NCBI GenBank assembly: GCA_009914755.4
Contig: CP086569.2
Location: forward strand, 61,824,001 to 61,888,000
Source of the DNA: the human T2T-CHM13v2.0 reference genome, Homo sapiens
DNA length: 64,000 bases
Reading direction: 5' to 3'
This document shows, one piece after another, positions 10,101 through 45,990 of this stretch. A program made the position numbers and the translations under genes. The notes under the pieces were generated by a model. That model had not been told where the DNA came from and ran no database searches. It saw nothing but the letters and a program-made list of their open reading frames with translations. Positions within the stretch are counted from its first letter, which is position 1; the number at the start of each line of letters is the position of its first letter.

Positions 10101-10641
10101 AACGGTCTCGAATTGAATGGAATCGTATGGAATGGAATTCAACGGAATGGAATGGACAGCCACGGAATGGAATGCACTCGAAAGCAATGGACTCGAAACT
10201 AATGGACTGGAATCGAATGGACTCGACTGGTACGGACTCCAATGGAATGGAATCGAATGGAATTGAATCGTACGGAATGGACTCGAAGTGATAAGAGTGC
10301 AATGGAAAGGTCTCGAATGGAATGGAAATTAATGGAATGGAATGGAATCGAATGAAATGGAGTCAAAAGGAATGGAATCGAATGGCAAGAAATCGAATGT
10401 AATGGAATCACAAGGAATGGATGTGAACGGAACGGAATGGAATGGAATCAAAAGGAATGGAATCGAATGGAATGGACTCGAATGGAAATGACTCGAATAG
10501 AATGGAATTCAACAAAATAGAATCAAATGTAATGGAATGGAATGGAAAGGAATGGAAACGAAAGGAATGGAGACAGATGGAATGGAATAGAACAGAGAGC
10601 AATGGTATAGAATGGAATGGAATCATATGGAATGGAATTGA
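7107..10641 (+). repeat. HOR copy 3, 3535 bp, class A2
   Basis: Anchor ORF at 7107. No 25-bp duplication (ORF at 8436 is 91 aa). ITWNGNEWNGMERNG variant at 7939. IPFDSTPF variant at 8115-8411. Confidence 0.9.
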
Positions 10642-20700: not shown

Positions 20701-21270
20701 ATCGAGTCACAAGGAATGGACAGGAATAGAACGGTCTCGAATTGAATGGAATCGTATGGAATGGAATTCAACGGAATGGAATGGACAGCCACGGAATGGA
20801 ATGCACTCGAAAGCAATGGACTCGAAACTAATGGACTGGAATCGAATGGACTCGACTGGTACGGACTCCAATGGAATGGAATCGAATGGAATGGAATCGA
20901 ACGGAATGGACTCGAAGTGATAAGAGTGCAATGGAAAGGTCTCGAATGGAATGGAAATTAATGGAATGGAATGGAATCGAATGAAATGGAGTCAAAAGGA
21001 ATGGAATCGAATGGCAAGAAATCGAATGTAATGGAATCACAAGGAATGGATGTGAACGGAACGGAATGGAATGGAATCAAAAGGAATGGAATCGAATGGA
21101 ATGGACACGAATGGAAATGACTCGAATAGAATGGAATTCAATAAAATACAATCAAATGTAATGGAATGGAATGGAAAGGAATCGAAACGAAAGGAATGGA
21201 GACAGATGGAATGGAATGGAACAGAGAGCAATGGTATATAATGGAATGGAATCATATGGAATGGAATTGA
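17711..21270 (+). repeat. HOR copy 6, 3560 bp, class B
   Basis: 121-aa ORF at 19040 (25-bp duplication at ~19172-19216). MYGIEQ at 18358. Private ORF at 19971-20255. Confidence 0.9.
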
Positions 21271-24200
21271 ATGGAATGGAATAATATGAAATGGAATGGA
21301 AAGGAATGGAATGCACTTGAATTAAATGGACTGGAATGGAATGGACTCGAACGGAGTGGAATGGAAAGGATTGAAATAGAATGGAATGGACTCCTTTGGA
21401 ATGGTCTAGTATGCAATGCAAACGACTGGCAGGGAATCAAAAGGAATGTAATCGAATGTATTGGACTGGAATACAGTGGACTCGAATACATTGGAAACGG
21501 AATGCAATGGAATGGAATGGAATAGTATGGAATGGAACGGAAAGGAATGAAGTAGAATGGACTAGAGTGGAATGGAATGGACTCGAAAGCAATGGACTGG
21601 AATGGAACGATCTTGAATGGACCGGAATCAAACGGAACGGAATGCAATGCAAGGCAATGAAATGGAATGGAATAAAAGAGAATGAAAGAGAATCAAATGC
21701 AATTGAATCGAATGGAATCGAATGGATTGGAAAGGAATAGAATGGAATGGAACGGAATTGACTCAAATGGAATGGACTAGAGCGGAATGGAGTCGAATGG
21801 AAGGCAAAGGAATGGAATCTATTGGAATGGACTGTAATGGAATGGCATGGAAGGGATTGGAATGGACTCGAATGGAAAGGACTGCAATAGAAAGGATTCG
21901 AATGGAATGAAAAAGAATTGTATGGAATAGAACAGAATGGAATCAAATCGAATGAAATGGAATGGAATAGAAAGGAATGGAATGAAATGGAATGGAAAGG
22001 ATTCAAATGGAATGCAATCAAATGGAATGCAATCGAATGGAATGGAATCGAACGGAATGGAATAAAATGGAAGGAAACTGGCAAGAAATGGAATCGAAAT
22101 GAATGGAGTGTTATGGAACGGACTCCAAAGGAATTGAATGTAATAGAATGGAGTGGAGTGGACTCGAATATAATGGACTGGAATGGAATGGAATCACATG
22201 GAATGGGAACGAATGGAATGGAATGGAAAGGAATGGAATCGAATGGAAAGGAGTCAAATGGAAGGGAATGAAATTGAATCAACAGGAATGGAAGGGAATA
22301 GAATAGACTGTAATGGAATGGACTCGAATAGAATGGACACGAATGCTCAAATTGGATGGACTCGAATGGAATGGAAACGAAAGGAATGTCATCGAATGGA
22401 ATTGAATCGATTGGAATGAAATGGCATAGAATGGAGTGGAATGAAATGGAATTGAATCGAAAGGAAAGGAAGCGAATGGACTGAAATGAAATGGAATGGA
22501 ATTGAATGGAAAGTAATGCAATGGAATAGAATGGAACGAAATTTCACGGAATGGAATCAAACAGAATGGAATCAAATCAATGGAATATAATCAAATGGAA
22601 TGGAATGGAATGGAAAGGAATTGAATGGAATAGATTGGATAGGAAGGGGTTGGAATGCAATGGAATGGAAAGGACTCGAATTTCATGAAACGGAATGGAA
22701 TGAATTGGAATGGAATGGACTCGAATGGAATGGAATGTCATGGAATGGCATAGAATGGAATGTCATGGAATGGCATCAAATGGAATGGAATCAAATGGAA
22801 TGGCATCGAATGCAATGGAATGTTATGGAATGGAATGGAATGTATTGGAATGGAATGTCCTCTAATGGAATGGATTCGAGTGGAATGGAATCGAATATAA
22901 TGGAGTCGAATGAAATGGAATTGAAAGGAATGGGATCGAATAGAATGGAATATACTGGAATGTAATGTAATGAAGTCGAATGTAATTGACTGGAATGGAA
23001 TGTACATGAATGGAATGTAATCGAATGGAAAGTAATCCAATGAAATAGAATCTAATGCAATAAAACCGACTCAAATGGAATAGAATGTAATGGAATGGAG
23101 TGCAGTGCAATGGAATGGAATGGAATGGAATGCAATGGAGTGGAATGGAATGGAATGGGATGGAATGGTATGGAATGGATAGTAAAGGACTGGAGTGAAA
23201 TGGACTGTAAAGGAATGGACTCCAATTGAAAGGGCTCGAAAGGAATGGAGTCAAATGGAATGGTCTGGAATGGAATGAACTCGAATGTAATGCAATCCAA
23301 TAGAATGGAATCGAATGGAATGGAATATAAAGAAATGGAATCGACGAGAATGGAAACAGATGGAATGGAATTGAAAGGAATGGAATTGAATGGAATGGGC
23401 ACGAATGGAATGAAATTGTATGGAATAGAAGAGAATAGAATGGAATGCAATGGATAAGAAAGGAATGGATTGGAATGGAAGGGAATGTAGTGTAATGGAC
23501 TGGCATGGAATAAACTGGAATGCTACGGTCTCAAATGGAATAAAAATGTATGGAATGGAATGCCATGAAATGGAATCGAATGTCATAGAATGTAATGGAA
23601 TGCAAATAAATGGACTCCAAAATCATTGACTGGAAAGGCTGGGTGTCGAAAGGAACTGACTCCAATGGAATGGAATCGAATGGAATGGAAGTGAATAGAA
23701 TCGAACTAAATCGAATGGAATGGAATTGATAGGAACGGAATGGAAAGGAATGGAATGATTTGGCATGGAATGGAATCGAATGGACTCGAATGGAATGGAA
23801 TGGAATGCAATGGAATGGAATGTATTAGAATGTAGTGAACTTTAATGGAATGAACTCGAATGGATTCGACTGGAATGGAATGTTCTGGAAGTGAATGGAC
23901 TCCAATGGAATGGATTCAAAAGGAATGGAATCGAAGGGAATGGAATCTAATGGAATGGAATGAAATGGAAAGGAATCCAATCGAATAGCACGGAATTGAA
24001 TTGAATGGAATCGAATGCAATGGAATCTAATGAAACGGAAAGGAAAGGAACGGAATGGCATGGAATGGGCTGGAATGGAATGGAATCGAAACGAATGTAA
24101 TGGAATCGAACTGAAGAGACTGGAATGGAAGGCACTGGCATGGAAGGGAGTTTAATGGAAGGTTCTCGAAAAGACTGGAATGGAATGGAATGGAATTGAA

Positions 24201-24830
24201 TGGAACGGATATAGAGTCAAATGGAATTGAATGGAATGGAATGGAGTAGAGTGAAATGGAATCGAGTCACAAGGAATGGACAGGAATAGAACGGTCTCGA
24301 ATTGAATGGAATCGTATGGAATGGAATTCAACGGAATGGAATGGACAGCCACGGAATGGAATGCACTCGAAAGCAATGGACTCGAAACTAATGGACTGGA
24401 ATCGAATGGACTCGACTGGTACGGACTCCAATGGAATGGAATCGAATGGAATTGAATCGAACGGAATGGACTCGAAGTGATAATAGTGCAATGGAAAGGT
24501 CTCGAATGGAATGGAAATTAATGGAATGGAATGGAATCGAATGAAATGGAGTCAAAAGGAATGGAATCGAATGGCAAGAAATCGAATGTAATGGAATCAC
24601 AAGGAATGGATGTGAACGGAACGGAATGGAATGGAATCAAAAGGAATGGAATCGAATGGAATGGACTCGAATGGAAATGACTCGAATAGAATGGAATTCA
24701 ACAAAATAGAATCAAATGTAATGGAATGGAATGGAAAGGAATCGAAACGAAAGGAATGGAGACAGATGGAATGGAATAGAACAGAGAGCAATGGTATAGA
24801 ATGGAATGGAATCATATGGAATGGAATTGA
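21271..24830 (+). repeat. HOR copy 7, 3560 bp, class B (first B of the B-C dimer run)
   Basis: 121-aa ORF at 22600. MYGIEQ at 21918. Confidence 0.9.
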
Positions 24831-27800
24831 ATGGAATGGAATAATATGAAATGGAATGGAAAGGAATGGAATGCACTTGAATTAAATGGACTGGAATGGA
24901 ATGGACTCGAACGGAGTGGAATGGAAAGGATTGAAATAGAATGGAATGGACTCCTTTGGAATGGTCTAGTATGCAATGCAAACGACTGGCAGGGAATCAA
25001 AAGGAATGTAATCGAATGGATTGGACTGGAATACAATGGACTCGAATACATTGGAAACGGAATGCAATGGAATGGAATGGAATAGTATGGAATGGAACGG
25101 AAAGGAATGAAGTAGAATGGACTAGAGTGGAATGGAATGGACTCGAAAGCAATGGACTGGAATGGAACGATCTTGAATGGACCGGAATCAAACGGAACGG
25201 AATGCAATGCAAGGCAATCAAATGGAATGGAATAAAAGAGAATGAAAGAGAATCAAATGCAATTGAATCGAATGGAATCGAATGGATTGGAAAGGAATAG
25301 AATGGAATGGAATGGAATTGACTCAAATGGAATGGACTAGAACGGAATGGAGTCGAATGGAAGGCAAAGGAATGGAATCTATTGGAATGGACTGTAATGG
25401 AATGGCATGGAAGGGATTGGAATGGACTCGAATGGAAAGGACTGCAATAGAAAGGATTCGAATGGAATGAAAAAGAATTGAATGGAATAGAACAGAATGG
25501 AATCAAATCGAATGAAATGGAATGGAATAGAAAGGAATGGAATGAAATGGAATGGAAAGGATTCAAATGGAATGCGATCAAATGGAATGCAATCGAATGG
25601 AATGGAATCGAACGGAATGGAATAAAATGGAAGGAAACTGGCAAGAAATGGAATCGAAATGAATGGAGGGTTATGGAACGGACTCCAAAGGAATTGAATG
25701 TAATAGAATGGAGTGGAGTGGACTCGAATATAATGGACTGGAATGGAATGGAATCACATGGAATGGGAACGAATGGAATGGAATGGAAAGGAATGGAATC
25801 GAATGGAAAGGAATCAAATGGAAGGGAATGAAATTGAATCAACAGGAATGGAAGGGAATAGAATAGACTGTAATGGAATGGACTCGAATAGAATGGACAC
25901 GAATGCTCAAATTGGATGGACTCGAATGGAATGGAAATGAAAGGAATGTCATCGAATGGAATTGAATCGATTGGAATGAAATGGCATAGAATGGAGTGGA
26001 ATGAAATGGAATTGAATCGAAAGGAAAGGAAGCGAATGGACTGAAATGAAATGGAATGGAATTGAATGGAAAGTAATGCAATGGAATAGAATGGAACGAA
26101 ATTTCACGGAATGGAATCAAAACAATGGAATATAATCAAATGGAATGGAATGGAATGGAAAGGAATTGAATGGAATAGATTGGATAGGAAGGGATTGGAA
26201 TGCAATGGAATGGAAAGGACTCGAATTTCATGAAACGGAATGGAATGAATTGGAATGGAATGGACTCGAATGGAATGGAATGTCATGGAATGGCATCAAA
26301 TGGAATGGAATCAAATGGAATGGCATCGAATGCAATGGAATGTTATGGAATGGAATGGAATGTATTGGAATGGAATGTCCTCTAATGGAATGGATTCGAG
26401 TGGAATGGAATCGAATATAATGGAGTCGAATGAAATGGAATTGAAAGGAATGGGATCGAATAGAATGGAATATACTGGAATGTAATGTAATGAAGTCGAA
26501 TGTAATTGACTGGAATGGAATGTACATGAATGGAATGTAATCGAATGGAAAGTAATCCAATGAAATAGAATCTAATGCAATAAAACCGACTCAAATGGAA
26601 TAGAATGTAATGGAATGGAGTGCAGTGCAATGGAATGGAATGGAATGGAATGCAATGGAGTGGAATGGAATGGAATGGGATGGAATGGTATGGAATGGAT
26701 AGTAAAGGACTGGAGTGAAATGGACTGTAAAGGAATGGACTCCAATTGAAAGGGCTCGAAAGGAATGGAGTCAAATGGAATGGTCTGGAATGGAATGAAC
26801 TCGAATGTAATGCAATCCAATAGAATGGAATCGAATGGAATGGAGTATAAAGAAATGGAATCGACGAGAATGGAAACAGATGGAATGGAATTGAAAGGAA
26901 TGGAATTGAATGGAATGGGCACGAATGGAATGAAATTGTATGGAATAGAAGAGAATAGAATGGAATGCAATGGATAAGAAAGGAATGGATTGGAATGGAA
27001 GGGAATGTAGTGTAATGGACTGGCATGGAATAAACTGGAATGCTACGGTCTCAAATGGAATAAAAATGTATGGAATGGAATGCCATGAAATGGAATCGAA
27101 TGTCATAGAATGTAATGGAATGCAAAGAAATGGACTCCAAAATCATTGACTGGAAAGGCTGGGTGTCGAAAGGAATTGACTCCAATGGAATGGAATCGAA
27201 TGGAATGGAAGTGAATAGAATCGAACTAAATCGAATGGAATGGAATTGATAGGAACGGAATGGAAAGGAATGGAATGATTTGGCATGAAATGGAATCGAA
27301 TGGACTCGAATGGAATGGAATGGAATGCAATGGAATGGAATGTATTAGAATGTAGTGAACTTTAATGGAATGAACTCGAATGGATTCGACTGGAATGGAA
27401 TGTTCTGGAAGTGAATGGACTCCAATGGAATGGATTCCAAAGGAATGGAATCGAAGGGAATGGAATCTAATGGAATGGAATGAAATGGAAAGGAATCCAA
27501 TCGAATAGCACGGAATTGAATTGAATGGAATCGAATGCAATGGAATCTAATGAAACGGAAAGGAAAGGAACGGAATGGCATGGAATGGGCTGGAATGGAA
27601 TGGAATCGAAACGAATGGAATGGAATCGAACTGAAGAGACTGGAATGGAATGCACTGGCATGGAAGGGAGTTTAATGGAAGGTTCTCGAAAAGACTGGAA
27701 TGGAATGGAATGGAATTGAATGGAACGGATATAGAGTCAAATGGAATTGAATGGAATGGAATGGAGTAGAGTGAAATGGAATCGAGTCACAAGGAATGGA

Positions 27801-28350
27801 CAGGAATAGAACGGTCTCGAATTGAATGGAATCGTATGGAATGGAATTCAACGGAATGGAATGGACAGCCACGGAATGGAATGCACTCGAAAGCAATGGA
27901 CTCGAAACTAATGGACTGGAATCGAATGGACTCGACTGGTACGGACTCCAATGGAATGGAATCGAATGGAATGGAATCGAACGGAATGGACTCGAAGTGA
28001 TAAGAGTGCAATGGAAAGGTCTCGAATGGAATGGAAATTAATGGAATGGAATGGAATCGAATGAAATGGAGTCAAAAGGAATGGAATCGAATGGCAAGAA
28101 ATCGAATGTAATGGAATCACAAGGAATGGATGTGAACGGAACGGAATGGAATGGAATCAAAAGGAATGGAATCGAATGGAATGGACACGAATGGAAATGA
28201 CTCGAATAGAATGGAATTCAATAAAATACAATCAAATGTAATGGAATGGAATGGAAAGGAATCGAAACGAAAGGAATGGAGACAGATGGAATGGAATGGA
28301 ACAGAGAGCAATGGTATATAATGGAATGGAATCATATGGAATGGAATTGA
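24831..28350 (+). repeat. HOR copy 8, 3520 bp, class C (15-bp deletion at ~26117-26121)
   Basis: aatcaaaacaatgg junction at 26117, where the A/B classes have aatcaaacagaatggaatcaaatcaatgg. Split ORFs at 25839-26120 (93 aa) and 26104-26286 (60 aa). MNGIEQ at 25478. Confidence 0.9.
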
Positions 28351-31300
28351 ATGGAATGGAATAATATGAAATGGAATGGAAAGGAATGGAATGCACTTGA
28401 ATTAAATGGACTGGAATGGAATGGACTCGAACGGAGTGGAATGGAAAGGATTGAAATAGAATGGAATGGACTCCTTTGGAATGGTCTAGTATGCAATGCA
28501 AACGACTGGCAGGGAATCAAAAGGAATGTAATCGAATGTATTGGACTGGAATACAGTGGACTCGAATACATTGGAAACGGAATGCAATGGAATGGAATGG
28601 AATAGTATGGAATGGAACGGAAAGGAATGAAGTAGAATGGACTAGAGTGGAATGGAATGGACTCGAAAGCAATGGACTGGAATGGAACGATCTTGAATGG
28701 ACCGGAATCAAACGGAACGGAATGCAATGCAAGGCAATGAAATGGAATGGAATAAAAGAGAATGAAAGAGAATCAAATGCAATTGAATCGAATGGAATCG
28801 AATGGATTGGAAAGGAATAGAATGGAATGGAACGGAATTGACTCAAATGGAATGGACTAGAGCGGAATGGAGTCGAATGGAAGGCAAAGGAATGGAATCT
28901 ATTGGAATGGACTGTAATGGAATGGCATGGAAGGGATTGGAATGGACTCGAATGGAAAGGACTGCAATAGAAAGGATTCGAATGGAATGAAAAAGAATTG
29001 TATGGAATAGAACAGAATGGAATCAAATCGAATGAAATGGAATGGAATAGAAAGGAATGGAATGAAATGGAATGGAAAGGATTCAAATGGAATGCAATCA
29101 AATGGAATGCAATCGAATGGAATGGAATCGAACGGAATGGAATAAAATGGAAGGAAACTGGCAAGAAATGGAATCGAAATGAATGGAGTGTTATGGAACG
29201 GACTCCAAAGGAATTGAATGTAATAGAATGGAGTGGAGTGGACTCGAATATAATGGACTGGAATGGAATGGAATCACATGGAATGGGAACGAATGGAATG
29301 GAATGGAAAGGAATGGAATCGAATGGAAAGGAGTCAAATGGAAGGGAATGAAATTGAATCAACAGGAATGGAAGGGAATAGAATAGACTGTAATGGAATG
29401 GACTCGAATAGAATGGACACGAATGCTCAAATTGGATGGACTCGAATGGAATGGAAACGAAAGGAATGTCATCGAATGGAATTGAATCGATTGGAATGAA
29501 ATGGCATAGAATGGAGTGGAATGAAATGGAATTGAATCGAAAGGAAAGGAAGCGAATGGACTGAAATGAAATGGAATGGAATTGAATGGAAAGTAATGCA
29601 ATGGAATAGAATGGAACGAAATTTCACGGAATGGAATCAAACAGAATGGAATCAAATCAATGGAATATAATCAAATGGAATGGAATGGAATGGAAAGGAA
29701 TTGAATGGAATAGATTGGATAGGAAGGGGTTGGAATGCAATGGAATGGAAAGGACTCGAATTTCATGAAACGGAATGGAATGAATTGGAATGGAATGGAC
29801 TCGAATGGAATGGAATGTCATGGAATGGCATAGAATGGAATGTCATGGAATGGCATCAAATGGAATGGAATCAAATGGAATGGCATCGAATGCAATGGAA
29901 TGTTATGGAATGGAATGGAATGTATTGGAATGGAATGTCCTCTAATGGAATGGATTCGAGTGGAATGGAATCGAATATAATGGAGTCGAATGAAATGGAA
30001 TTGAAAGGAATGGGATCGAATAGAATGGAATATACTGGAATGTAATGTAATGAAGTCGAATGTAATTGACTGGAATGGAATGTACATGAATGGAATGTAA
30101 TCGAATGGAAAGTAATCCAATGAAATAGAATCTAATGCAATAAAACCGACTCAAATGGAATAGAATGTAATGGAATGGAGTGCAGTGCAATGGAATGGAA
30201 TGGAATGGAATGCAATGGAGTGGAATGGAATGGAATGGGATGGAATGGTATGGAATGGATAGTAAAGGACTGGAGTGAAATGGACTGTAAAGGAATGGAC
30301 TCCAATTGAAAGGGCTCGAAAGGAATGGAGTCAAATGGAATGGTCTGGAATGGAATGAACTCGAATGTAATGCAATCCAATAGAATGGAATCGAATGGAA
30401 TGGAATATAAAGAAATGGAATCGACGAGAATGGAAACAGATGGAATGGAATTGAAAGGAATGGAATTGAATGGAATGGGCACGAATGGAATGAAATTGTA
30501 TGGAATAGAAGAGAATAGAATGGAATGCAATGGATAAGAAAGGAATGCATTGGAATGGAAGGGAATGTAGTGTAATGGACTGGCATGGAATAAACTGGAA
30601 TGCTACGGTCTCAAATGGAATAAAAATGTATGGAATGGAATGCCATGAAATGGAATCGAATGTCATAGAATGTAATGGAATGCAAATAAATGGACTCCAA
30701 AATCATTGACTGGAAAGGCTGGGTGTCGAAAGGAACTGACTCCAATGGAATGGAATCGAATGGAATGGAAGTGAATAGAATCGAACTAAATCGAATGGAA
30801 TGGAATTGATAGGAACGGAATGGAAAGGAATGGAATGATTTGGCATGGAATGGAATCGAATGGACTCGAATGGAATGGAATGGAATGCAATGGAATGGAA
30901 TGTATTAGAATGTAGTGAACTTTAATGGAATGAACTCGAATGGATTCGACTGGAATGGAATGTTCTGGAAGTGAATGGACTCCAATGGAATGGATTCAAA
31001 AGGAATGGAATCGAAGGGAATGGAATCTAATGGAATGGAATGAAATGGAAAGGAATCCAATCGAATAGCACGGAATTGAATTGAATGGAATCGAATGCAA
31101 TGGAATCTAATGAAACGGAAAGGAAAGGAACGGAATGGCATGGAATGGGCTGGAATGGAATGGAATCGAAACGAATGTAATGGAATCGAACTGAAGAGAC
31201 TGGAATGGAAGGCACTGGCATGGAAGGGAGTTTAATGGAAGGTTCTCGAAAAGACTGGAATGGAATGGAATGGAATTGAATGGAACGGATATAGAGTCAA

Positions 31301-31910
31301 ATGGAATTGAATGGAATGGAATGGAGTAGAGTGAAATGGAATCGAGTCACAAGGAATGGACAGGAATAGAACGGTCTCGAATTGAATGGAATCGTATGGA
31401 ATGGAATTCAACGGAATGGAATGGACAGCCACGGAATGGAATGCACTCGAAAGCAATGGACTCGAAACTAATGGACTGGAATCGAATGGACTCGACTGGT
31501 ACGGACTCCAATGGAATGGAATCGAATGGAATTGAATCGAACGGAATGGACTCGAAGTGATAAGAGTGCAATGGAAAGGTCTCGAATGGAATGGAAATTA
31601 ATGGAATGGAATGGAATCGAATGAAATGGAGTCAAAAGGAATGGAATCGAATGGCAAGAAATCGAATGTAATGGAATCACAAGGAATGGATGTGAACGGA
31701 ACGGAATGGAATGGAATCAAAAGGAATGGAATCGAATGGAATGGACTCGAATGGAAATGACTCGAATAGAATGGAATTCAACAAAATAGAATCAAATGTA
31801 ATGGAATGGAATGGAAAGGAATCGAAACGAAAGGAATGGAGACAGATGGAATGGAATAGAACAGAGAGCAATGGTATAGAATGGAATGGAATCATATGGA
31901 ATGGAATTGA
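28351..31910 (+). repeat. HOR copy 9, 3560 bp, class B
   Basis: 121-aa ORF at 29680. MYGIEQ at 28998. Confidence 0.9.
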
Positions 31911-34900
31911 ATGGAATGGAATAATATGAAATGGAATGGAAAGGAATGGAATGCACTTGAATTAAATGGACTGGAATGGAATGGACTCGAACGGAGTGGA
32001 ATGGAAAGGATTGAAATAGAATGGAATGGACTCCTTTGGAATCGTCTAGTATGCAATGCAAACGACTGGCAGGGAATCAAAAGGAATGTAATCGAATGGA
32101 TTGGACTGGAATACAATGGACTCGAATACATTGGAAACGGAATGCAATGGAATGGAATGGAATAGTATGGAATGGAACGGAAAGGAATGAAGTAGAATGG
32201 ACTAGAGTGGAATGGAATGGACTCGAAAGCAATGGACTGGAATGGAACGATCTTGAATGGACCGGAATCAAACGGAACGGAATGCAATGCAAGGCAATCA
32301 AATGGAATGGAATAAAAGAGAATGAAAGAGAATCAAATGCAATTGAATCGAATGGAATCGAATGGATTGGAAAGGAATAGAATGGAATGGAATGGAATTG
32401 ACTCAAATGGAATGGACTAGAACGGAATGGAGTCGAATGGAAGGCAAAGGAATGGAATCTATTGGAATGGACTGTAATGGAATGGCATGGAAGGGATTGG
32501 AATGGACTCGAATGGAAAGGACTGCAATAGAAAGGATTCGAATGGAATGAAAAAGAATTGAATGGAATAGAACAGAATGGAATCAAATCGAATGAAATGG
32601 AATGGAATAGAAAGGAATGGAATGAAATGGAATGGAAAGGATTCAAATGGAATGCGATCAAATGGAATGCAATCGAATGGAATGGAATCGAACGGAATGG
32701 AATAAAATGGAAGGAAACTGGCAAGAAATGGAATCGAAATGAATGGAGGGTTATGGAACGGACTCCAAAGGAATTGAATGTAATAGAATGGAGTGGAGTG
32801 GACTCGAATATAATGGACTGGAATGGAATGGAATCACATGGAATGGGAACGAATGGAATGGAATGGAAAGGAATGGAATCGAATGGAAAGGAATCAAATG
32901 GAAGGGAATGAAATTGAATCAACAGGAATGGAAGGGAATAGAATAGACTGTAATGGAATGGACTCGAATAGAATGGACACGAATGCTCAAATTGGATGGA
33001 CTCGAATGGAATGGAAACGAAAGGAATGTCATCGAATGGAATTGAATCGATTGGAATGAAATGGCATAGAATGGAGTGGAATGAAATGGAATTGAATCGA
33101 AAGGAAAGGAAGCGAATGGACTGAAATGAAATGGAATGGAATTGAATGGAAAGTAATGCAATGGAATAGAATGGAACGAAATTTCACGGAATGGAATCAA
33201 AACAATGGAATATAATCAAATGGAATGGAATGGAATGGAAAGGAATTGAATGGAATAGATTGGATAGGAAAGGATTGGAATGCAATGGAATGGAAAGGAC
33301 TCGAATTTCATGAAACGGAATGGAATGAATTGGAATGGAATGGACTCGAATGGAATGGAATGTCATGGAATGGCATCAAATGGAATGGAATCAAATGGAA
33401 TGGCATCGAATGCAATGGAATGTTATGGAATGGAATGGAATGTATTGGAATGGAATGTCCTCTAATGGAATGGATTCGAGTGGAATGGAATCGAATATAA
33501 TGGAGTCGAATGAAATGGAATTGAAAGGAATGGGATCGAATAGAATGGAATATACTGGAATGTAATGTAATGAAGTCGAATGTAATTGACTGGAATGGAA
33601 TGTACATGAATGGAATGTAATCGAATGGAAAGTAATCCAATGAAATAGAATCTAATGCAATAAAACCGACTCAAATGGAATAGAATGTAATGGAATGGAG
33701 TGCAGTGCAATGGAATGGAATGGAATGGAATGCAATGGAGTGGAATGGAATGGAATGGGATGGAATGGTATGGAATGGATAGTAAAGGACTGGAGTGAAA
33801 TGGACTGTAAAGGAATGGACTCCAATTGAAAGGGCTCGAAAGGAATGGAGTCAAATGGAATGGTCTGGAATGGAATGAACTCGAATGTAATGCAATCCAA
33901 TAGAATGGAATCGAATGGAATGGAGTATAAAGAAATGGAATCGACGAGAATGGAAACAGATGGAATGGAATTGAAAGGAATGGAATTGAATGGAATGGGC
34001 ACGAATGGAATGAAATTGTATGGAATAGAAGAGAATAGAATGGAATGCAATGGATAAGAAAGGAATGGATTGGAATGGAAGGGAATGTAGTGTAATGGAC
34101 TGGCATGGAATAAACTGGAATGCTACGGTCTCAAATGGAATAAAAATGTATGGAATGGAATGCCATGAAATGGAATCGAATGTCATAGAATGTAATGGAA
34201 TGCAAAGAAATGGACTCCAAAATCATTGACTGGAAAGGCTGGGTGTCGAAAGGAATTGACTCCAATGGAATGGAATCGAATGGAATGGAAGTGAATAGAA
34301 TCGAACTAAATCGAATGGAATGGAATTGATAGGAACGGAATGGAAAGGAATGGAATGATTTGGCATGAAATGGAATCGAATGGACTCGAATGGAATGGAA
34401 TGGAATGCAATGGAATGGAATGTATTAGAATGTAGTGAACTTTAATGGAATGAACTCGAATGGATTCGACTGGAATGGAATGTTCTGGAAGTGAATGGAC
34501 TCCAATGGAATGGATTCAAAAGGAATGGAATCGAAGGGAATGGAATCTAATGGAATGGAATGAAATGGAAAGGAATCCAATCGAATAGCACGGAATTGAA
34601 TTGAATGGAATCGAATGCAATGGAATCTAATGAAACGGAAAGGAAAGGAACGGAATGGCATGGAATGGGCTGGAATGGAATGGAATCGAAACGAATGGAA
34701 TGGAATCGAACTGAAGAGACTGGAATGGAATGCACTGGCATGGAAGGGAGTTTAATGGAAGGTTCTCGAAAAGACTGGAATGGAATGGAATGGAATTGAA
34801 TGGAACGGATATAGAGTCAAATGGAATTGAATGGAATGGAATGGAGTAGAGTGAAATGGAATCGAGTCACAAGGAATGGACAGGAATAGAACGGTCTCGA

Positions 34901-35430
34901 ATTGAATGGAATCGTATGGAATGGAATTCAACGGAATGGAATGGACAGCCACGGAATGGAATGCACTCGAAAGCAATGGACTCGAAACTAATGGACTGGA
35001 ATCGAATGGACTCGACTGGTACGGACTCCAATGGAATGGAATCGAATGGAATGGAATCGAACGGAATGGACTCGAAGTGATAAGAGTGCAATGGAAAGGT
35101 CTCGAATGGAATGGAAATTAATGGAATGGAATGGAATCGAATGAAATGGAGTCAAAAGGAATGGAATCGAATGGCAAGAAATCGAATGTAATGGAATCAC
35201 AAGGAATGGATGTGAACGGAACGGAATGGAATGGAATCAAAAGGAATGGAATCGAATGGAATGGACACGAATGGAAATGACTCGAATAGAATGGAATTCA
35301 ATAAAATACAATCAAATGTAATGGAATGGAATGGAAAGGAATCGAAACGAAAGGAATGGAGACAGATGGAATGGAATGGAACAGAGAGCAATGGTATATA
35401 ATGGAATGGAATCATATGGAATGGAATTGA
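31911..35430 (+). repeat. HOR copy 10, 3520 bp, class C
   Basis: 15-bp deletion junction at ~33198 (ORFs at 32919-33200 and 33184-33366). IGKDWN variant at 33225. Confidence 0.9.
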
Positions 35431-38400
35431 ATGGAATGGAATAATATGAAATGGAATGGAAAGGAATGGAATGCACTTGAATTAAATGGACTGGAATGGA
35501 ATGGACTCGAACGGAGTGGAATGGAAAGGATTGAAATAGAATGGAATGGACTCCTTTGGAATGGTCTAGTATGCAATGCAAACGACTGGCAGGGAATCAA
35601 AAGGAATGTAATCGAATGTATTGGACTGGAATACAGTGGACTCGAATACATTGGAAACGGAATGCAATGGAATGGAATGGAATAGTATGGAATGGAACGG
35701 AAAGGAATGAAGTAGAATGGACTAGAGTGGAATGGAATGGACTCGAAAGCAATGGACTGGAATGGAACGATCTTGAATGGACCGGAATCAAACGGAACGG
35801 AATGCAATGCAAGGCAATGAAATGGAATGGAATAAAAGAGAATGAAAGAGAATCAAATGCAATTGAATCGAATGGAATCGAATGGATTGGAAAGGAATAG
35901 AATGGAATGGAACGGAATTGACTCAAATGGAATGGACTAGAGCGGAATGGAGTCGAATGGAAGGCAAAGGAATGGAATCTATTGGAATGGACTGTAATGG
36001 AATGGCATGGAAGGGATTGGAATGGACTCGAATGGAAAGGACTGCAATAGAAAGGATTCGAATGGAATGAAAAAGAATTGTATGGAATAGAACAGAATGG
36101 AATCAAATCGAATGAAATGGAATGGAATAGAAAGGAATGGAATGAAATGGAATGGAAAGGATTCAAATGGAATGCAATCAAATGGAATGCAATCGAATGG
36201 AATGGAATCGAACGGAATGGAATAAAATGGAAGGAAACTGGCAAGAAATGGAATCGAAATGAATGGAGTGTTATGGAACGGACTCCAAAGGAATTGAATG
36301 TAATAGAATGGAGTGGAGTGGACTCGAATATAATGGACTGGAATGGAATGGAATCACATGGAATGGGAACGAATGGAATGGAATGGAAAGGAATGGAATC
36401 GAATGGAAAGGAGTCAAATGGAAGGGAATGAAATTGAATCAACAGGAATGGAAGGGAATAGAATAGACTGTAATGGAATGGACTCGAATAGAAAGGACAC
36501 GAATGCTCAAATTGGATGGACTCGAATGGAATGGAAACGAAAGGAATGTCATCGAATGGAATTGAATCGATTGGAATGAAATGGCATAGAATGGAGTGGA
36601 ATGAAATGGAATTGAATCGAAAGGAAAGGAAGCGAATGGACTGAAATGAAATGGAATGGAATTGAATGGAAAGTAATGCAATGGAATAGAATGGAACGAA
36701 ATTTCACGGAATGGAATCAAACAGAATGGAATCAAATCAATGGAATATAATCAAATGGAATGGAATGGAATGGAAAGGAATTGAATGGAATAGATTGGAT
36801 AGGAAGGGGTTGGAATGCAATGGAATGGAAAGGACTCGAATTTCATGAAACGGAATGGAATGAATTGGAATGGAATGGACTCGAATGGAATGGAATGTCA
36901 TGGAATGGCATAGAATGGAATGTCATGGAATGGCATCAAATGGAATGGAATCAAATGGAATGGCATCGAATGCAATGGAATGTTATGGAATGGAATGGAA
37001 TGTATTGGAATGGAATGTCCTCTAATGGAATGGATTCGAGTGGAATGGAATCGAATATAATGGAGTCGAATGAAATGGAATTGAAAGGAATGGGATCGAA
37101 TAGAATGGAATATACTGGAATGTAATGTAATGAAGTCGAATGTAATTGACTGGAATGGAATGTACATGAATGGAATGTAATCGAATGGAAAGTAATCCAA
37201 TGAAATAGAATCTAATGCAATAAAACCGACTCAAATGGAATAGAATGTAATGGAATGGAGTGCAGTGCAATGGAATGGAATGGAATGGAATGCAATGGAG
37301 TGGAATGGAATGGAATGGGATGGAATGGTATGGAATGGATAGTAAAGGACTGGAGTGAAATGGACTGTAAAGGAATGGACTCCAATTGAAAGGGCTCGAA
37401 AGGAATGGAGTCAAATGGAATGGTCTGGAATGGAATGAACTCGAATGTAATGCAATCCAATAGAATGGAATCGAATGGAATGGTGTATAAAGAAATGGAA
37501 TCGACGAGAATGGAAACAGATGGAATGGAATTGAAAGGAATGGAATTGAATGGAATGGGCACGAATGGAATGAAATTGTATGGAATAGAAGAGAATAGAA
37601 TGGAATGCAATGGATAAGAAAGGAATGGATTGGAATGGAAGGGAATGTAGTGTAATGGACTGGCATGGAATAAACTGGAATGCTACGGTCTCAAATGGAA
37701 TAAAAATGTATGGAATGGAATGCCATGAAATGGAATCGAATGTCATAGAATGTAATGGAATGCAAAGAAATGGACTCCAAAATCATTGACTGGAAAGGCT
37801 GGGTGTCGAAAGGAATTGACTCCAATGGAATGGAATCGAATGGAATGGAAGTGAATAGAATCGAACTAAATCGAATGGAATGGAATTGATAGGAACGGAA
37901 TGGAAAGGAATGGAATGATTTGGCATGGAATGGAATCGAATGGACTCGAATGGAATGGAATGGAATGCAATGGAATGGAATGTATTAGAATGTAGTGAAC
38001 TTTAATGGAATGAACTCGAATGGATTCGACTGGAATGGAATGTTCTGGAAGTGAATGGACTCCAATGGAATGGATTCAAAAGGAATGGAATCGAAGGGAA
38101 TGGAATCTAATGGAATGGAATGAAATGGAAAGGAATCCAATCGAATAGCACGGAATTGAATTGAATGGAATCGAATGCAATGGAATCTAATGAAACGGAA
38201 AGGAAAGGAACGGAATGGCATGGAATGGGCTGGAATGGAATGGAATCGAAACGAATGTAATGGAATCGAACTGAAGAGACTGGAATGGAAGGCACTGGCA
38301 TGGAAGGGAGTTTAATGGAAGGTTCTCGAAAAGACTGGAATGGAATGGAATGGAATTGAATGGAACGGATATAGAGTCAAATGGAATTGAATGGAATGGA

Positions 38401-38990
38401 ATGGAGTAGAGTGAAATGGAATCGAGTCACAAGGAATGGACAGGAATAGAACGGTCTCGAATTGAATGGAATCGTATGGAATGGAATTCAACGGAATGGA
38501 ATGGACAGCCACGGAATGGAATGCACTCGAAAGCAATGGACTCGAAACTAATGGACTGGAATCGAATGGACTCGACTGGTACGGACTCCAATGGAATGGA
38601 ATCGAATGGAATTGAATCGAACGGAATGGACTCGAAGTGATAAGAGTGCAATGGAAAGGTCTCGAATGGAATGGAAATTAATGGAATGGAATGGAATCGA
38701 ATGAAATGGAGTCAAAAGGAATGGAATCGAATGGCAAGAAATCGAATGTAATGGAATCACAAGGAATGGATGTGAACGGAACGGAATGGAATGGAATCAA
38801 AAGGAATGGAATCGAATGGAATGGACTCGAATGGAAATGACTCGAATAGAATGGAATTCAACAAAATAGAATCAAATGTAATGGAATGGAATGGAAAGGA
38901 ATCGAAACGAAAGGAATGGAGACAGATGGAATGGAATAGAACAGAGAGCAATGGTATAGAATGGAATGGAATCATATGGAATGGAATTGA
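35431..38990 (+). repeat. HOR copy 11, 3560 bp, class B
   Basis: 121-aa ORF at 36760. MYGIEQ at 36078. Confidence 0.9.
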
Positions 38991-41900
38991 ATGGAATGGA
39001 ATAATATGAAATGGAATGGAAAGGAATGGAATGCACTTGAATTAAATGGACTGGAATGGAATGGACTCGAACGGAGTGGAATGGAAAGGATTGAAATAGA
39101 ATGGAATGGACTCCTTTGGAATGGTCTAGTATGCAATGCAAACGACTGGCAGGGAATCAAAAGGAATGTAATCGAATGGATTGGACTGGAATACAATGGA
39201 CTCGAATACATTGGAAACGGAATGCAATGGAATGGAATGGAATAGTATGGAATGGAACGGAAAGGAATGAAGTAGAATGGACTAGAGTGGAATGGAATGG
39301 ACTCGAAAGCAATGGACTGGAATGGAACGATTTTGAATGGACCGGAATCAAACGGAACGGAATGCAATGCAAGGCAATCAAATGGAATGGAATAAAAGAG
39401 AATGAAAGAGAATCAAATGCAATTGAATCGAATGGAATCGAATGGATTGGAAAGGAATAGAATGGAATGGAATGGAATTGACTCAAATGGAATGGACTAG
39501 AACGGAATGGAGTCGAATGGAAGGCAAAGGAATGGAATCTATTGGAATGGACTGTAATGGAATGGCATGGAAGGGATTGGAATGGACTCGAATGGAAAGG
39601 ACTGCAATAGAAAGGATTCGAATGGAATGAAAAAGAATTGAATGGAATAGAACAGAATGGAATCAAATCGAATGAAATGGAATGGAATAGAAAGGAATGG
39701 AATGAAATGGAATGGAAAGGATTCAAATGGAATGCGATCAAATGGAATGCAATCGAATGGAATGGAATCGAACGGAATGGAATAAAATGGAAGGAAACTG
39801 GCAAGAAATGGAATCGAAATGAATGGAGGGTTATGGAACGGACTCCAAAGGAATTGAATGTAATAGAATGGAGTGGAGTGGACTCGAATATAATGGACTG
39901 GAATGGAATGGAATCACATGGAATGGGAACGAATGGAATGGAATGGAAAGGAATGGAATCGAATGGAAAGGAATCAAATGGAAGGGAATGAAATTGAATC
40001 AACAGGAATGGAAGGGAATAGAATAGACTGTAATGGAATGGACTCGAATAGAATGGACACGAATGCTCAAATTGGATGGACTCGAATGGAATGGAAACGA
40101 AAGGAATGTCATCGAATGGAATTGAATCGATTGGAATGAAATGGCATAGAATGGAGTGGAATGAAATGGAATTGAATCGAAAGGAAAGGAAGCGAATGGA
40201 CTGAAATGAAATGGAATGGAATTGAATGGAAAGTAATGCAATGGAATAGAATGGAACGAAATTTCACGGAATGGAATCAAAACAATGGAATATAATCAAA
40301 TGGAATGGAATGGAATGGAAAGGAATTGAATGGAATAGATTGGATAGGAAAGGATTGGAATGCAATGGAATGGAAAGGACTCGAATTTCATGAAACGGAA
40401 TGGAATGAATTGGAATGGAATGGACTCGAATGGAATGGAATGTCATGGAATGGCATCAAATGGAATGGAATCAAATGGAATGGCATCGAATGCAATGGAA
40501 TGTTATGGAATGGAATGGAATGTATTGGAATGGAATGTCCTCTAATGGAATGGATTCGAGTGGAATGGAATCGAATATAATGGAGTCGAATGAAATGGAA
40601 TTGAAAGGAATGGGATCGAATAGAATGGAATATACTGGAATGTAATGTAATGAAGTCGAATGTAATTGACTGGAATGGAATGTACATGAATGGAATGTAA
40701 TCGAATGGAAAGTAATCCAATGAAATAGAATCTAATGCAATAAAACCGACTCAAATGGAATAGAATGTAATGGAATGGAGTGCAGTGCAATGGAATGGAA
40801 TGGAATGGAATGCAATGGAGTGGAATGGAATGGAATGGGATGGAATGGTATGGAATGGATAGTAAAGGACTGGAGTGAAATGGACTGTAAAGGAATGGAC
40901 TCCAATTGAAAGGGCTCGAAAGGAATGGAGTCAAATGGAATGGTCTGGAATGGAATGAACTCGAATGTAATGCAATCCAATAGAATGGAATCGAATGGAA
41001 TGGAGTATAAAGAAATGGAATCGACGAGAATGGAAACAGATGGAATGGAATTGAAAGGAATGGAATTGAATGGAATGGGCACGAATGGAATGAAATTGTA
41101 TGGAATAGAAGAGAATGGAATGGAATGCAATGGATAAGAAAGGAATGGATTGGAATGGAAGGGAATGTAGTGTAATGGACTGGCATGGAATAAACTGGAA
41201 TGCTACGGTCTCAAATGGAATAAAAATGTATGGAATGGAATGCCATGAAATGGAATCGAATGTCATAGAATGTAATGGAATGCAAAGAAATGGACTCCAA
41301 AATCATTGACTGGAAAGGCTGGGTGTCGAAAGGAATTGACTCCAATGGAATGGAATCGAATGGAATGGAAGTGAATAGAATCGAACTAAATCGAATGGAA
41401 TGGAATTGATAGGAACGGAATGGAAAGGAATGGAATGATTTGGCATGGAATGGAATCGAATGGACTCGAATGGAATGGAATGGAATGCAATGGAATGGAA
41501 TGTATTAGAATGTAGTGAACTTTAATGGAATGAACTCGAATGGATTCGACTGGAATGGAATGTTCTGGAAGTGAATGGACTCCAATGGAATGGATTCAAA
41601 AGGAATGGAATCGAAGGGAATGGAATCTAATGGAATGGAATGAAATGGAAAGGAATCCAATCGAATAGCACGGAATTGAATTGAATGGAATCGAATGCAA
41701 TGGAATCTAATGAAACGGAAAGGAAAGGAACGGAATGGCATGGAATGGGCTGGAATGGAATGGAATCGAAACGAATGGAATGGAATCGAACTGAAGAGAC
41801 TGGAATGGAAGGCACTGGCATGGAAGGGAGTTTAATGGAAGGTTCTCGAAAAGACTGGAATGGAATGGAATGGAATTGAATGGAACGGATATAGAGTCAA

Positions 41901-42510
41901 ATGGAATTGAATGGAATGGAATGGAGTAGAGTGAAATGGAATCGAGTCACAAGGAATGGACAGGAATAGAACGGTCTCGAATTGAATGGAATCGTATGGA
42001 ATGGAATTCAACGGAATGGAATGGACAGCCACGGAATGGAATGCACTCGAAAGCAATGGACTCGAAACTAATGGACTGGAATCGAATGGACTCGACTGGT
42101 ACGGACTCCAATGGAATGGAATCGAATGGAAGGGAATCGAACGGAATGGACTCGAAGTGATAAGAGTGCAATGGAAAGGTCTCGAATGGAATGGAAATTA
42201 ATGGAATGGAATGGAATCGAATGAAATGGAGTCAAAAGGAATGGAATCGAATGGCAAGAAATCGAATGTAATGGAATCACAAGGAATGGATGTGAACGGA
42301 ACGGAATGGAATGGAATCAAAAGGAATGGAATCGAATGGAATGGACTCGAATGGAAATGACTCGAATAGAATGGAATTCAACAAAATAGAATCAAATGTA
42401 ATGGAATGGAATGGAAAGGAATCGAAACGAAAGGAATGGAGACAGATGGAATGGAATAGAACAGAGAGCAATGGTATAGAATGGAATGGAATCATATGGA
42501 ATGGAATTGA
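38991..42510 (+). repeat. HOR copy 12, 3520 bp, class C
   Basis: 15-bp deletion junction at ~40278 (ORFs at 39999-40280 and 40264-40446). IGKDWN variant at 40305. Confidence 0.9.
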
Positions 42511-45500: not shown

Positions 45501-45990
45501 ATTGAATGGAATCGTATGGAATGGAATTCAACGGAATGGAATGGACAGCCACGGAATGGAATGCACTCGAATGCAATGGACTCGAAACTAATGGACTGGA
45601 ATCGAATGGAATGGAATCGAACGGAATGGAATCGAAGTGAAAAGAGTGCAATGGAAAGGTCTCGAATGGAATGGAAATTAATGGAATGGAATGGAATCGA
45701 ATGAAATGGAGTCAAAAGGAATGGAATCGAATGGCAAGAAATCGAATGTAATGGAATCACAAGGAATGGATGTGAACGGAACGGAATGGAATGGAATCAA
45801 AAGGAATGGAATCGAATGGAATGGACTCGAATGGAAATGACTAGCATAGAATGGAATTCAACAAAATAGAATCAAATGTAATGGAATGGAATGGAAAGGA
45901 ATCGAAACGAAAGGACTGGAGACAGATGGAATGGAATGGAACAGAGAGCAATGGTATATAATGGAATGGAATCATATGGAATGGAATTGA
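42511..45990 (+). repeat. HOR copy 13, 3480 bp, hybrid: class C head (15-bp deletion at ~43798) and family-2 (D) tail from ~45.15 kb, including the 40-bp deletion at ~45606
   Basis: C markers at 43519-43800, 43784-43966 and 43825 (IGKDWN). D markers appear from 45151 (ggaattaaatggaaatgaatcaaatcg) and at 45025 (MPFHSFPF...SVQFRAIRFDSFPFN). 3480 = 3535 - 15 - 40. Confidence 0.88.

What the first reader, a model, noticed from the sequence alone, without database searches (positions are those of the whole stretch)
21271..42510. Dimeric super-HOR: B (3560 bp) and C (3520 bp) copies alternate three times with a 7080-bp period
Copies 7 to 12 run B-C-B-C-B-C, starting at 21271, 24831, 28351, 31911, 35431 and 38991. 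Like copies are more similar to each other than to their neighbours. B 9 versus B 11 differ at only a handful of sites. C 10 and C 12 share IGKDWN, ESSSMQ and the D-for-H change. The alternation holds even in the unit tails: the HYIPLLSVPF tail always precedes a B head and the HSIPLLSVLF tail always precedes a C head. This points to amplification of a two-copy 7.08-kb unit, a second-order repeat on top of the HOR.
Basis: seen in the sequence. Interest (0 to 1): 0.5.

Follow-up and report, generated by a model that had tools for sequence, protein, structure and literature searches.

The report
Local two-unit repeat in DYZ1-type satellite
Inside a 64-kb array of DYZ1-family (GGAAT-based, about 3.5 kb per unit) satellite DNA, a pair of slightly different neighbouring units has been copied in tandem about three times; the 7.08-kb repeat is real, but it is the ordinary result of out-of-register exchange in satellite DNA.

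Summary
The window holds 18 head-to-tail copies of a ~3.5-kb unit built from GGAAT. Between 21271 and 42510, base identity at lag 7080 is 0.998, against ~0.80 at lags 3520/3560. The three 7080-bp dimers differ by 6, 17 and 19 substitutions and no indels. Adjacent B and C units differ by 19-26 substitutions plus a 25-bp and a 15-bp indel (Fisher p = 6e-13).

The unit is a diverged member of the DYZ1/HSat3A6 family. It aligns colinearly with the published 3564-bp human DYZ1 unit at ~96% identity over aligned bases. It carries the HSat3A6-specific 24-mer but lacks the canonical HaeIII site.

When the unit boundary is moved to the undifferentiated middle, there are two variant blocks: alpha (C-tail plus B-head) and beta (B-tail plus C-head). 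They run alpha-(alpha-beta)x3-beta.

The best explanation is two rounds of unequal exchange at a two-unit offset, followed by a few point mutations and one conversion-like patch. The block spans only ~2.9 near-identical periods (core 20623-41116), and near-identity also occurs at lags of 1, 3 and 4 units elsewhere in the window. So it is a local amplification, not an array-wide super-HOR. Interest is low. Assembly error cannot be excluded here.

The parts
1..63986 (+). Uninterrupted array of GGAAT-based satellite. It holds 18 full units of a ~3.5-kb nested repeat of the DYZ1/HSat3A6 family (GGAAT on the + strand, canonical TTCCA strand is -). Unit starts: 12, 3547, 7107, 10642, 14176, 17711, 21271, 24831, 28351, 31911, 35431, 38991, 42511, 45991, 49486, 53040, 56594, 60089, 63584.
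   Evidence: TRF finds a period 5/10/15 array over 1-63986. Anchor hits give the unit starts. Full-length colinear alignment to the published 3564-bp DYZ1 unit. The HSat3A6-specific 24-mer occurs 17 times and no other subfamily 24-mer occurs.
21271..28350 (+). Dimer 1: B unit (copy 7, 21271-24830, 3560 bp) plus C unit (copy 8, 24831-28350, 3520 bp).
   Evidence: It differs from dimer 2 at 6 of 7080 positions.
28351..35430 (+). Dimer 2: B unit (copy 9, 28351-31910) plus C unit (copy 10, 31911-35430).
35431..42510 (+). Dimer 3: B unit (copy 11, 35431-38990) plus copy 12 (38991-42510). Copy 12 has a C head, but from about 41.1-41.5 kb onward its tail is B-type.
   Evidence: In the tail segment copy 12 is 3-4 differences from copies 7/9/11 and 8-9 from copies 8/10.
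20623..41116 (+). Core of the amplified tract, where sequence at lag 7080 is nearly identical (22 mismatches over 13.4 kb of comparison, no indels). About 2.9 periods.
   Evidence: Mismatch list at lag 7080. Longest identical runs at lag 2 units are 2845, 1975, 1784 and 1306 bp, all inside this tract.
17711..21270 (+). Copy 6, the left flank. It is a hybrid of a B head (identical to copies 7 and 9 over columns 1-1500) and a C-type tail. In the re-phased frame this gives the extra alpha unit to the left of the (alpha-beta)x3 run.
   Evidence: head 6=7=9; tail of 6 is 2-4 from copies 5/8/10..
42511..45990 (+). Copy 13, the right flank. Its C-type head is identical to copy 10 over columns 1-1500 and carries the 15-bp deletion. 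At about 45.1 kb it switches to the diverged tail type shared by copies 13-18.
   Evidence: deleted junction at 43782.
22728..22777 (+). B marker: a 25-bp tandem duplication (GAATGGAATGTCATGGAATGGCAT-A/C, two copies). The same duplication sits at 29808 and 36888, and in copies 2 (5004) and 6 (19168). It is derived relative to canonical DYZ1.
26102..26128 (+). C marker: the junction left by loss of one of two tandem 15-mers (GAATGGAATCAAA-A). The same junction sits at 33182, 40262 and 43782 (copies 10, 12, 13). It is derived relative to canonical DYZ1.
37484..37816 (+). Patch in B copy 11 whose variable sites differ from copies 7 and 9; three of the four carry C-type states (AA/T/C in copies 7 and 9 becomes TG/G/T). 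It looks like a short gene-conversion tract.
   Evidence: the middle segment of copy 11 is 1 difference from copies 8/10 but 4-5 from 7/9..

Best explanation
The window is a diverged array of the DYZ1/HSat3A6 satellite family, the ~3.5-kb nested repeat of the GGAAT pentamer best known from human Yq12.

Two unit variants arose in it by replication-slippage indels and a few substitutions. B carries a 25-bp tandem duplication plus 8 derived substitutions in its first 1.5 kb. C carries a 15-bp deletion of one of two tandem 15-mers plus 2 substitutions.

Seen from the undifferentiated middle of the unit, the variants are two contiguous ~2.6-kb blocks: alpha (C tail plus B head) and beta (B tail plus C head). 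A pair of adjacent units was then duplicated in tandem twice, giving alpha-(alpha-beta)x3-beta. The process would be exchange between copies misaligned by exactly two units (7080 bp): unequal sister-chromatid exchange, or an equivalent template switch during repair or replication. A handful of point mutations and one short conversion-like patch followed.

Shown: the unit map, the two variant blocks and their polarity, the continuous indel-free 20.5-kb tract at lag 7080, and the flanking hybrid units. Inferred: the exchange mechanism, the order of events, and an age of roughly 1,100-1,800 generations if the published Yq12 mutation rate applies.
For: Lag-7080 identity is 0.998 against 0.80 at one-unit lags. 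The dimers differ at 6, 17 and 19 of 7080 positions with no indels, while B and C differ by 19-26 substitutions plus 2 indels. Fisher p = 6e-13, and 8 of 720 orderings do as well.

Identical runs of 1.3-2.8 kb at lag 2 units tile 20623-41116, separated by single mismatches. Every C tail is followed by a B head (5 of 5) and every C head is preceded by a B tail (4 of 4). Copies 6 and 12 are reciprocal hybrids, as out-of-register exchange in an alternating array predicts.

With canonical DYZ1 as outgroup, both variants are derived, and their indels are slippage products of local tandem 25-mers and 15-mers.

[quoted passage not shown] De novo structural variants of one or two whole DYZ2 units occur about once per Y transmission. 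The Yq12 mutation rate is 3.86e-7 per bp per generation, and 29% of de novo changes look like gene conversion (PMC12240836).
Against: There are only about three periods, so trees of the B and C halves carry little signal. Copies 10 and 12 share a derived A at column 1376, while copies 7 and 9 share states that 11 lacks, so the order of the two duplications is not resolved.

Near-identity also exists at lags of 1, 3, 4, 5 and 7 units elsewhere in the window. A detached B unit (copy 2) lies 14-28 kb away from the block's B units. So the history involved more than the two events proposed.

No reads are available, so the assembly cannot be validated. The source chromosome and species are unknown, so the Yq12 mutation rate and the haploid, sister-chromatid setting are assumptions.
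Confidence: 0.8

Rival explanations
1. The B-C alternation is old. Like units look nearly identical only because gene conversion preferentially homogenises units of the same type two positions apart, not because the dimer was recently duplicated.
For: Gene conversion is documented in this satellite family: 29% of de novo Yq12 changes match non-orthologous copies (PMC12240836), and 6 of 35 events were conversion-like (10.64898/2026.06.03.729890). Copy 11 carries a C-type patch at 37484-37816, so conversion-like transfer does occur in this block.
Against: The lag-7080 similarity is one continuous 20.5-kb tract with no indels and identical runs up to 2.8 kb, including the undifferentiated middle of the units. 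Short conversion tracts would leave a patchwork. The one visible patch transfers sequence between unlike units, which erodes the alternation rather than maintaining it.
Confidence: 0.08
2. Assembly artefact: a repeat-graph loop was traversed too many times, or reads were misplaced, so the genome really holds fewer dimers.
For: Satellite arrays with units more than 99% identical are the hardest regions to assemble. No read data can be examined here. Dimers 1 and 2 differ at only 6 positions.
Against: Each dimer has private substitutions (6-19 differences). The flanks are distinct hybrid units (copies 6 and 12) that give unique entry and exit points. A falsely repeated loop would normally give identical copies. 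Differences of ~1 per kb can be resolved by accurate long reads (my own judgement, not tested here).
Confidence: 0.07
3. Two unit variants that spread independently happen to lie in alternating order, without co-amplification.
For: With three B and three C units, perfect alternation arises in 10% of random orders. B-type and C-tail-type units also occur elsewhere in the window (copies 1, 2, 5, 6).
Against: This does not explain why variant-neutral sequence is also near-identical at lag 7080. It does not explain why dimers 1 and 2 are closer to each other in both halves (2 and 4 substitutions) than either is to dimer 3. Only 8 of 720 orderings match the observed statistic.
Confidence: 0.03

Closest known systems
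DYZ1 / HSat3A6, the ~3.56-kb nested tandem repeat of the pentamer TTCCA/GGAAT on human Yq12 (PMC4022460; PMC3925983; 10.1101/2022.12.01.518724; 10.1101/2022.12.01.518658)
   Same: Pentamer-based. Unit of 3480-3560 bp. Colinear over the full length with a published 3564-bp DYZ1 unit. Published DYZ1 primers hit once per unit, in the published order, with 0-2 mismatches. The HSat3A6-specific 24-mer is present about once per unit. Unit-length variants are in steps of 5 bp.
   Different: Identity to the canonical unit is ~96% over aligned bases (~93% counting gaps), against more than 98% reported for most Yq12 units. The canonical HaeIII site is mutated in all 18 units. There are two EcoRI sites per unit (3.19 + 0.37 kb). 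None of the 40 DYZ1-like contigs among the 42 scan loci (mostly contaminant) is closer to the window than to canonical DYZ1. Chromosome and species of origin are unknown.
Iterative tandem duplications and unequal exchange within Yq12 (T2T-Y), and de novo gains or losses of one to two whole DYZ2 units in pedigrees (PMC12240836)
   Same: The same proposed process: out-of-register exchange between near-identical units, giving duplications that are whole multiples of the unit, with gene conversion superimposed.
   Different: The published events are either much larger (up to 5 Mb, spanning several DYZ1/DYZ2 blocks) or were seen in DYZ2. I found no description of a 7.08-kb two-unit amplification in a DYZ1-type array in the papers searched.
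Alpha-satellite 'superHOR' and cascading HOR structures, and HOR-haplotype layers in centromeres (e.g. PMC12428378, PMC12385485; listed, not read)
   Same: A repeat of repeats: a period that is a multiple of the basic HOR, defined by variant units in fixed order.
   Different: Those structures are defined over long arrays of 171-bp monomers. Here the base unit is a 3.5-kb pentamer-derived repeat, the second-order period spans only ~3 copies, and it does not organise the rest of the 64-kb window.

Membership tests
DYZ1 / HSat3A6 | Built from the pentamer GGAAT/ATTCC and its derivatives | tested here: met
   TRF finds one array over 1-63986 with consensus AATGG multiples. The sequence was also read directly.
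DYZ1 / HSat3A6 | Nested tandem repeat unit of about 3.5-3.6 kb | tested here: met
   There are 18 units of 3480-3560 bp. The top autocorrelation lags are 3560 and 3520.
DYZ1 / HSat3A6 | Full-length colinear homology to the published 3564-bp DYZ1 unit | tested here: met
   Copy 7 aligns end to end with the unit from PMC3925983 Additional file 1: 92.8% identity over 3620 columns including gaps. All 18 copies are 95.7-96.2% identical over aligned bases with 8-10 indel events. Primers A-G of that paper hit once per unit.
DYZ1 / HSat3A6 | Carries HSat3A6-specific 24-mers and not those of other HSat2/3 subfamilies (Altemose 2014, Table 1) | tested here: met
   The example HSat3A6 24-mer occurs 17 times. 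The example 24-mers of the 13 other subfamilies occur 0 times. Only one 24-mer per subfamily was available.
DYZ1 / HSat3A6 | One HaeIII (GGCC) site per unit, giving the classical 3.56-kb HaeIII fragment | tested here: not met
   AGGCCT is ATGCCA in all 18 units. The window has only two GGCC sites, at 53181 and 56735, at a non-canonical position.
DYZ1 / HSat3A6 | More than 98% identity to the DYZ1 consensus, as reported for the vast majority of Yq12 units | tested here: not met
   Identity to one published canonical unit is ~96% over aligned bases. Contaminant DYZ1 contigs from public assemblies are 98-99.7% identical to that same unit. This fits a peripheral or otherwise diverged array.
DYZ1 / HSat3A6 | Located on Yq12, male-specific, interleaved with DYZ2/HSat1B blocks | not testable with these tools
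   The window is satellite from end to end with no flank. No human or ape genome is among the searchable collections.
Second-order repeat ('super-HOR') on top of a HOR | Identity at a lag of n units exceeds identity at one unit, with variant units in fixed order | tested here: met
Second-order repeat ('super-HOR') on top of a HOR | The second-order period extends over the array rather than a few copies | tested here: not met
   The near-identical tract covers about 2.9 periods (the register holds for 3.5). Copies 1-6 and 13-18 show no lag-2 excess. Whether it continues outside the window cannot be seen, but both flanks inside the window break the pattern.

The most novel reading that the evidence does not exclude
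The window samples a distinct DYZ1 subfamily that lacks the HaeIII site. In this reading its arrays use the 7.08-kb alpha-beta pair as a recurrent building block over far more than this window, and possibly at a locus other than the bulk of human Yq12 (a peripheral Yq12 block, an autosomal HSat3A6 site, or another ape). The detached piece of the dimer at 2.4-7.1 kb (C tail plus a full B unit) would be a trace of that wider use.
Probability: 0.1. Interest if true: 0.35.

Novelty: new member of a known kind. Interest (0 to 1): 0.17.

Why it matters
It matters little on its own. Local amplification of multi-unit blocks is the expected behaviour of satellite arrays that evolve by unequal exchange, and the T2T-era Y-chromosome papers already describe that process for this family at larger scales.

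The modest value is practical. The 25-bp duplication and the 15-bp deletion are clean, slippage-derived markers that distinguish neighbouring units otherwise ~99.3% identical. The block has identifiable hybrid units at both ends. Such markers would let one count dimers in long reads, check the assembly here, and follow gain or loss of whole dimers between related chromosomes.

The finding also flags that this array is a diverged DYZ1 variant without the HaeIII site. HaeIII-based or consensus-based unit calling, as used in one published Yq12 analysis, would not split it into units.

Tried and rejected
(1) Independent copies of this sub-array. One scan each of genome contigs and metagenome contigs, using a degenerate pattern around the HaeIII position, gave 42 loci. 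Nearly all are canonical DYZ1 contamination. None is closer to the window than to canonical DYZ1. L028 is intermediate, carrying 22 of 69 window-specific states. That script mishandled wrap-around for several other loci, so only the L028, L032 and L033 figures are usable. A viral-contig scan for the window-specific site found nothing.

(2) Control for lag-2 structure in a canonical DYZ1 array. L011 has three units but 37-49 indel events per pair, so it is a noisy long-read contig and unusable.

(3) Species and chromosome of origin. These are not determinable. The papers on ape sex chromosomes and acrocentric arms gave nothing decisive. Altemose 2014 lists HSat3A6 as 'Y, 7' without further detail.

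(4) Coding or RNA function. There are stop-free ORFs up to 281 aa on the minus strand, once per unit, but they are the expected by-product of ATTCC repeats. No Rfam family reaches its threshold in 19000-44000. Rejected as irrelevant.

(5) A 4-unit (14.16 kb) period for the left part of the window. This was suggested by 500-bp spot checks but is not supported by whole-unit distances: 13-21 substitutions at lag 4.

(6) Dating and ordering the two duplications from B and C trees. There are too few informative sites, and they conflict.

(7) DYZ1 PCR primers recalled from memory. They matched once per unit with 1 and 3 mismatches and 134-bp spacing instead of the 154 bp I remembered. I used them only as a lead and replaced them with the published primers and the full unit.
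Full report
**What the window is.** The whole window is one uninterrupted array of GGAAT-type satellite on the + strand. TRF reports a single array over 1-63986. Composition is flat and strongly strand-skewed throughout.

A 60-mer taken from 21271 recurs exactly at 17 further positions, and once more with a single mismatch. This defines 18 complete units starting at 12, 3547, 7107, 10642, 14176, 17711, 21271, 24831, 28351, 31911, 35431, 38991, 42511, 45991, 49486, 53040, 56594 and 60089. Their lengths are 3535, 3560, 3535, 3534, 3535, 3560, 3560, 3520, 3560, 3520, 3560, 3520, 3480, 3495, 3554, 3554, 3495 and 3495 bp.

**Check of the observation.** Within 21271-42510, the fraction of identical bases is 0.9984 at lag 7080 and 0.9973 at 14160. 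It is only 0.81 at lag 3520 and 0.80 at lag 3560.

In a MAFFT alignment of the 18 units:
- B units 7, 9 and 11 differ by 2, 6 and 6 substitutions.
- C units 8, 10 and 12 differ by 4, 11 and 13.
- Every B-C pair differs by 19-26 substitutions plus two indel events.

Compared without gaps, the three 7080-bp dimers differ at 6, 17 and 19 positions and have no length difference. Pooled, the substitution rate is 121/17600 at lag 1 and 23/14080 at lag 2 (Fisher p = 6e-13). Only 8 of the 720 orderings of the six units give as strong a lag-2 advantage.

- ESSSMQ is in copies 5, 10 and 13, not 12. IGKDWN is in 10, 12 and 13.
- The 'always' in the tail-head rule holds only inside the block.

**True extent.** The lag-7080 register holds from 19193 to 36721 in the first member, that is up to 43801 in the second. 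The part with almost no mismatches is 20623-41116, about 2.9 periods. Identical runs of 2845, 1975, 1784 and 1306 bp at a lag of two units tile this tract.

**Anatomy of the two variants.** B and C differ in two places.

In the first 1.5 kb, B units (and also copies 2 and 6) carry 8 substitutions and a 25-bp insertion. C units (and copy 13) lack a 15-bp segment and carry 2 substitutions.

Using the canonical DYZ1 unit as outgroup, both sets of changes are derived. The 25-bp insertion is a tandem duplication of the adjacent GAATGGAATGTCATGGAATGGCAT. The 15-bp deletion removes one of two tandem GAATGGAATCAAA-A 15-mers. Both are typical slippage products.

In the last 1.1 kb there are again two types:
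- A 'C tail' in copies 1, 5, 6, 8 and 10.
- A 'B tail' in copies 2, 3, 7, 9, 11 and 12.

Every C tail is followed by a B head (5 of 5). Every C head is preceded by a B tail (4 of 4).

With the boundary moved to the undifferentiated middle of the unit, the order from copy 5 to copy 13 is alpha, alpha, beta, alpha, beta, alpha, beta, beta. That is alpha-(alpha-beta)x3-beta.

**Mechanism.** This part is inferred. All units are about 99% identical, so homologous exchange can start at any register. An exchange between copies misaligned by two units duplicates a pair of units and creates no new hybrid. Two such events turn alpha-alpha-beta-beta into the observed order.

Afterwards the copies picked up isolated substitutions. 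Copy 11 also acquired a 330-bp patch (37484-37816) in which three of the four changed sites carry C-type states. This looks like a short conversion from a neighbouring unlike unit.

The family literature supports each ingredient:
- In a four-generation pedigree, de novo structural variants removed or added one or two whole DYZ2 units about once per Y transmission. The Yq12 substitution rate was 3.86e-7 per bp per generation, and 29% of new changes matched other copies, as gene conversion would produce (PMC12240836).

If that rate applied here, 6 differences in 7080 bp would mean about 1,100 generations since dimers 1 and 2 separated. Eight differences in the clean 5.7 kb of dimers 2 and 3 would mean about 1,800 generations. 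This is conditional on a locus identity that I could not establish.

**Why it is not more than a local amplification.** Copies 1-6 and 13-18 show no excess similarity at lag 2. The same window has near-identical tracts at other lags:
- Lag 1: 17046-20017, and copies 15/16 and 17/18.
- Lag 3: the heads of copies 1 and 4, and of copies 10 and 13.
- Lags 4, 5 and 7: the head of copy 2 against copies 6, 7 and 9.

Copy 2 is a full B unit, 9 substitutions from copies 7, 9 and 11. The tail of copy 1 is identical to the tail of copy 10. So a detached 4.7-kb piece of the dimer sits at about 2.4-7.1 kb. The array has therefore been reshuffled at several registers, and the dimer block is the clearest of these events.

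**Family assignment.** I transcribed the 3564-bp DYZ1 unit of a human male from Additional file 1 of PMC3925983.
- Copy 7 aligns with it colinearly over the full unit, at 92.8% identity over 3620 columns including gaps.
- All 18 copies are 95.7-96.2% identical over aligned bases, with 8-10 indel events.
- That paper's primers hit once per unit, in the published order, with 0-2 mismatches.
- The HSat3A6-specific 24-mer of Altemose 2014 occurs 17 times. The example 24-mers of the 13 other HSat2/3 subfamilies never occur.

Two defining features of classical DYZ1 are not met. The HaeIII site AGGCCT is ATGCCA in every unit. Identity to the canonical unit is well below the more than 98% reported for most Yq12 units.

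Forty of the 42 loci pulled from public bacterial assemblies and metagenomes are DYZ1-like; many of them are 98-99.7% identical to the canonical unit, and their matches to the window range from about 72% to 96% (commonly 91-94%). One contig, L028, shares the HaeIII-less variant and a third of the window-specific states. I therefore file the window as a diverged member of the DYZ1/HSat3A6 family, for example a peripheral or otherwise atypical block. Its chromosome and species are undetermined.

**Rivals.**
- Homogenisation of an old alternating array by conversion does not fit the continuous indel-free 20.5-kb tract.
- A chance ordering of two variants does not explain near-identity at non-diagnostic sites.
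- Assembly error cannot be tested without reads. It is made less likely by private substitutions in each dimer and by distinct hybrid flanks.

**Other checks.** Nothing suggests a coding or structured-RNA role. The long ORFs are a by-product of the repeat, and Rfam finds nothing.

**Verdict.** This is the ordinary behaviour of a known satellite family. In the papers I could search I found no prior description of this particular 7.08-kb dimer. Interest is low.

Noticed in passing
window, every unit, e.g. 2213-2235, 23497-23519 (- strand): The canonical DYZ1 HaeIII site (TCCACTTTATTCCAGGCCTGTCC region) reads TCCAGTTTATTCCATGCCAGTCC in all 18 units. The only two GGCC sites in 64 kb are at 53181 and 56735 (copies 16 and 17, offset 142). 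HaeIII-based unit calling would not cut this array into units.
   Followed up: yes
window ~45,100-45,200 (copy 13, alignment columns ~2650-2692) and onward to 63,583: There is a sharp switch of sub-domain inside copy 13. From here on, copies 13-18 share at least 10 fixed substitutions in the unit tail that copies 1-12 lack. Copies 13, 14, 17 and 18 share a 40-bp deletion between GGAATCGAATGGA direct repeats. Copies 15 and 16 carry a 20-bp tandem duplication.
   Followed up: partly
window 2,400-7,100 (tail of copy 1 plus copy 2): A detached piece of the dimer. The tail of copy 1 is identical to the tail of copy 10. Copy 2 is a full B unit (with the 25-bp duplication at 5004) only 9 substitutions from copies 7, 9 and 11. 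It is separated from the main block by three or four units of other types.
   Followed up: partly
window 49,486-63,583: Copies 15/16 and 17/18 are near-identical neighbours with identical tails (9 and 15 substitutions overall). These are one-unit-register duplications in the diverged right-hand domain.
   Followed up: no
window 37,484-37,816 (copy 11): A B unit whose middle differs from the other B units at four sites, three of them carrying C-type states. It looks like a short gene-conversion tract from an unlike neighbour.
   Followed up: partly
L028 (metagenome contig OAWE01001279.1) and L010 (OAUT01000082.1): L028 carries the same HaeIII-less variant and 22 of 69 window-specific states, so intermediate DYZ1 variants exist in public data. 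L010 has a canonical unit directly next to a unit with the HaeIII-less variant.
   Followed up: partly
window, two sites per unit, e.g. 3040 and 3410, 24324 and 24694: There are two EcoRI sites per unit, 370 bp apart, which predict 3.19-kb and 0.37-kb fragments. I did not compare this with the canonical unit's EcoRI map.
   Followed up: no
window 21,437-22,282 (- strand), recurring once per unit: Stop-free ORFs of up to 281 aa lie on the ATTCC strand. This is expected from the codon content of the pentamer repeat, and there is no evidence of coding.
   Followed up: partly
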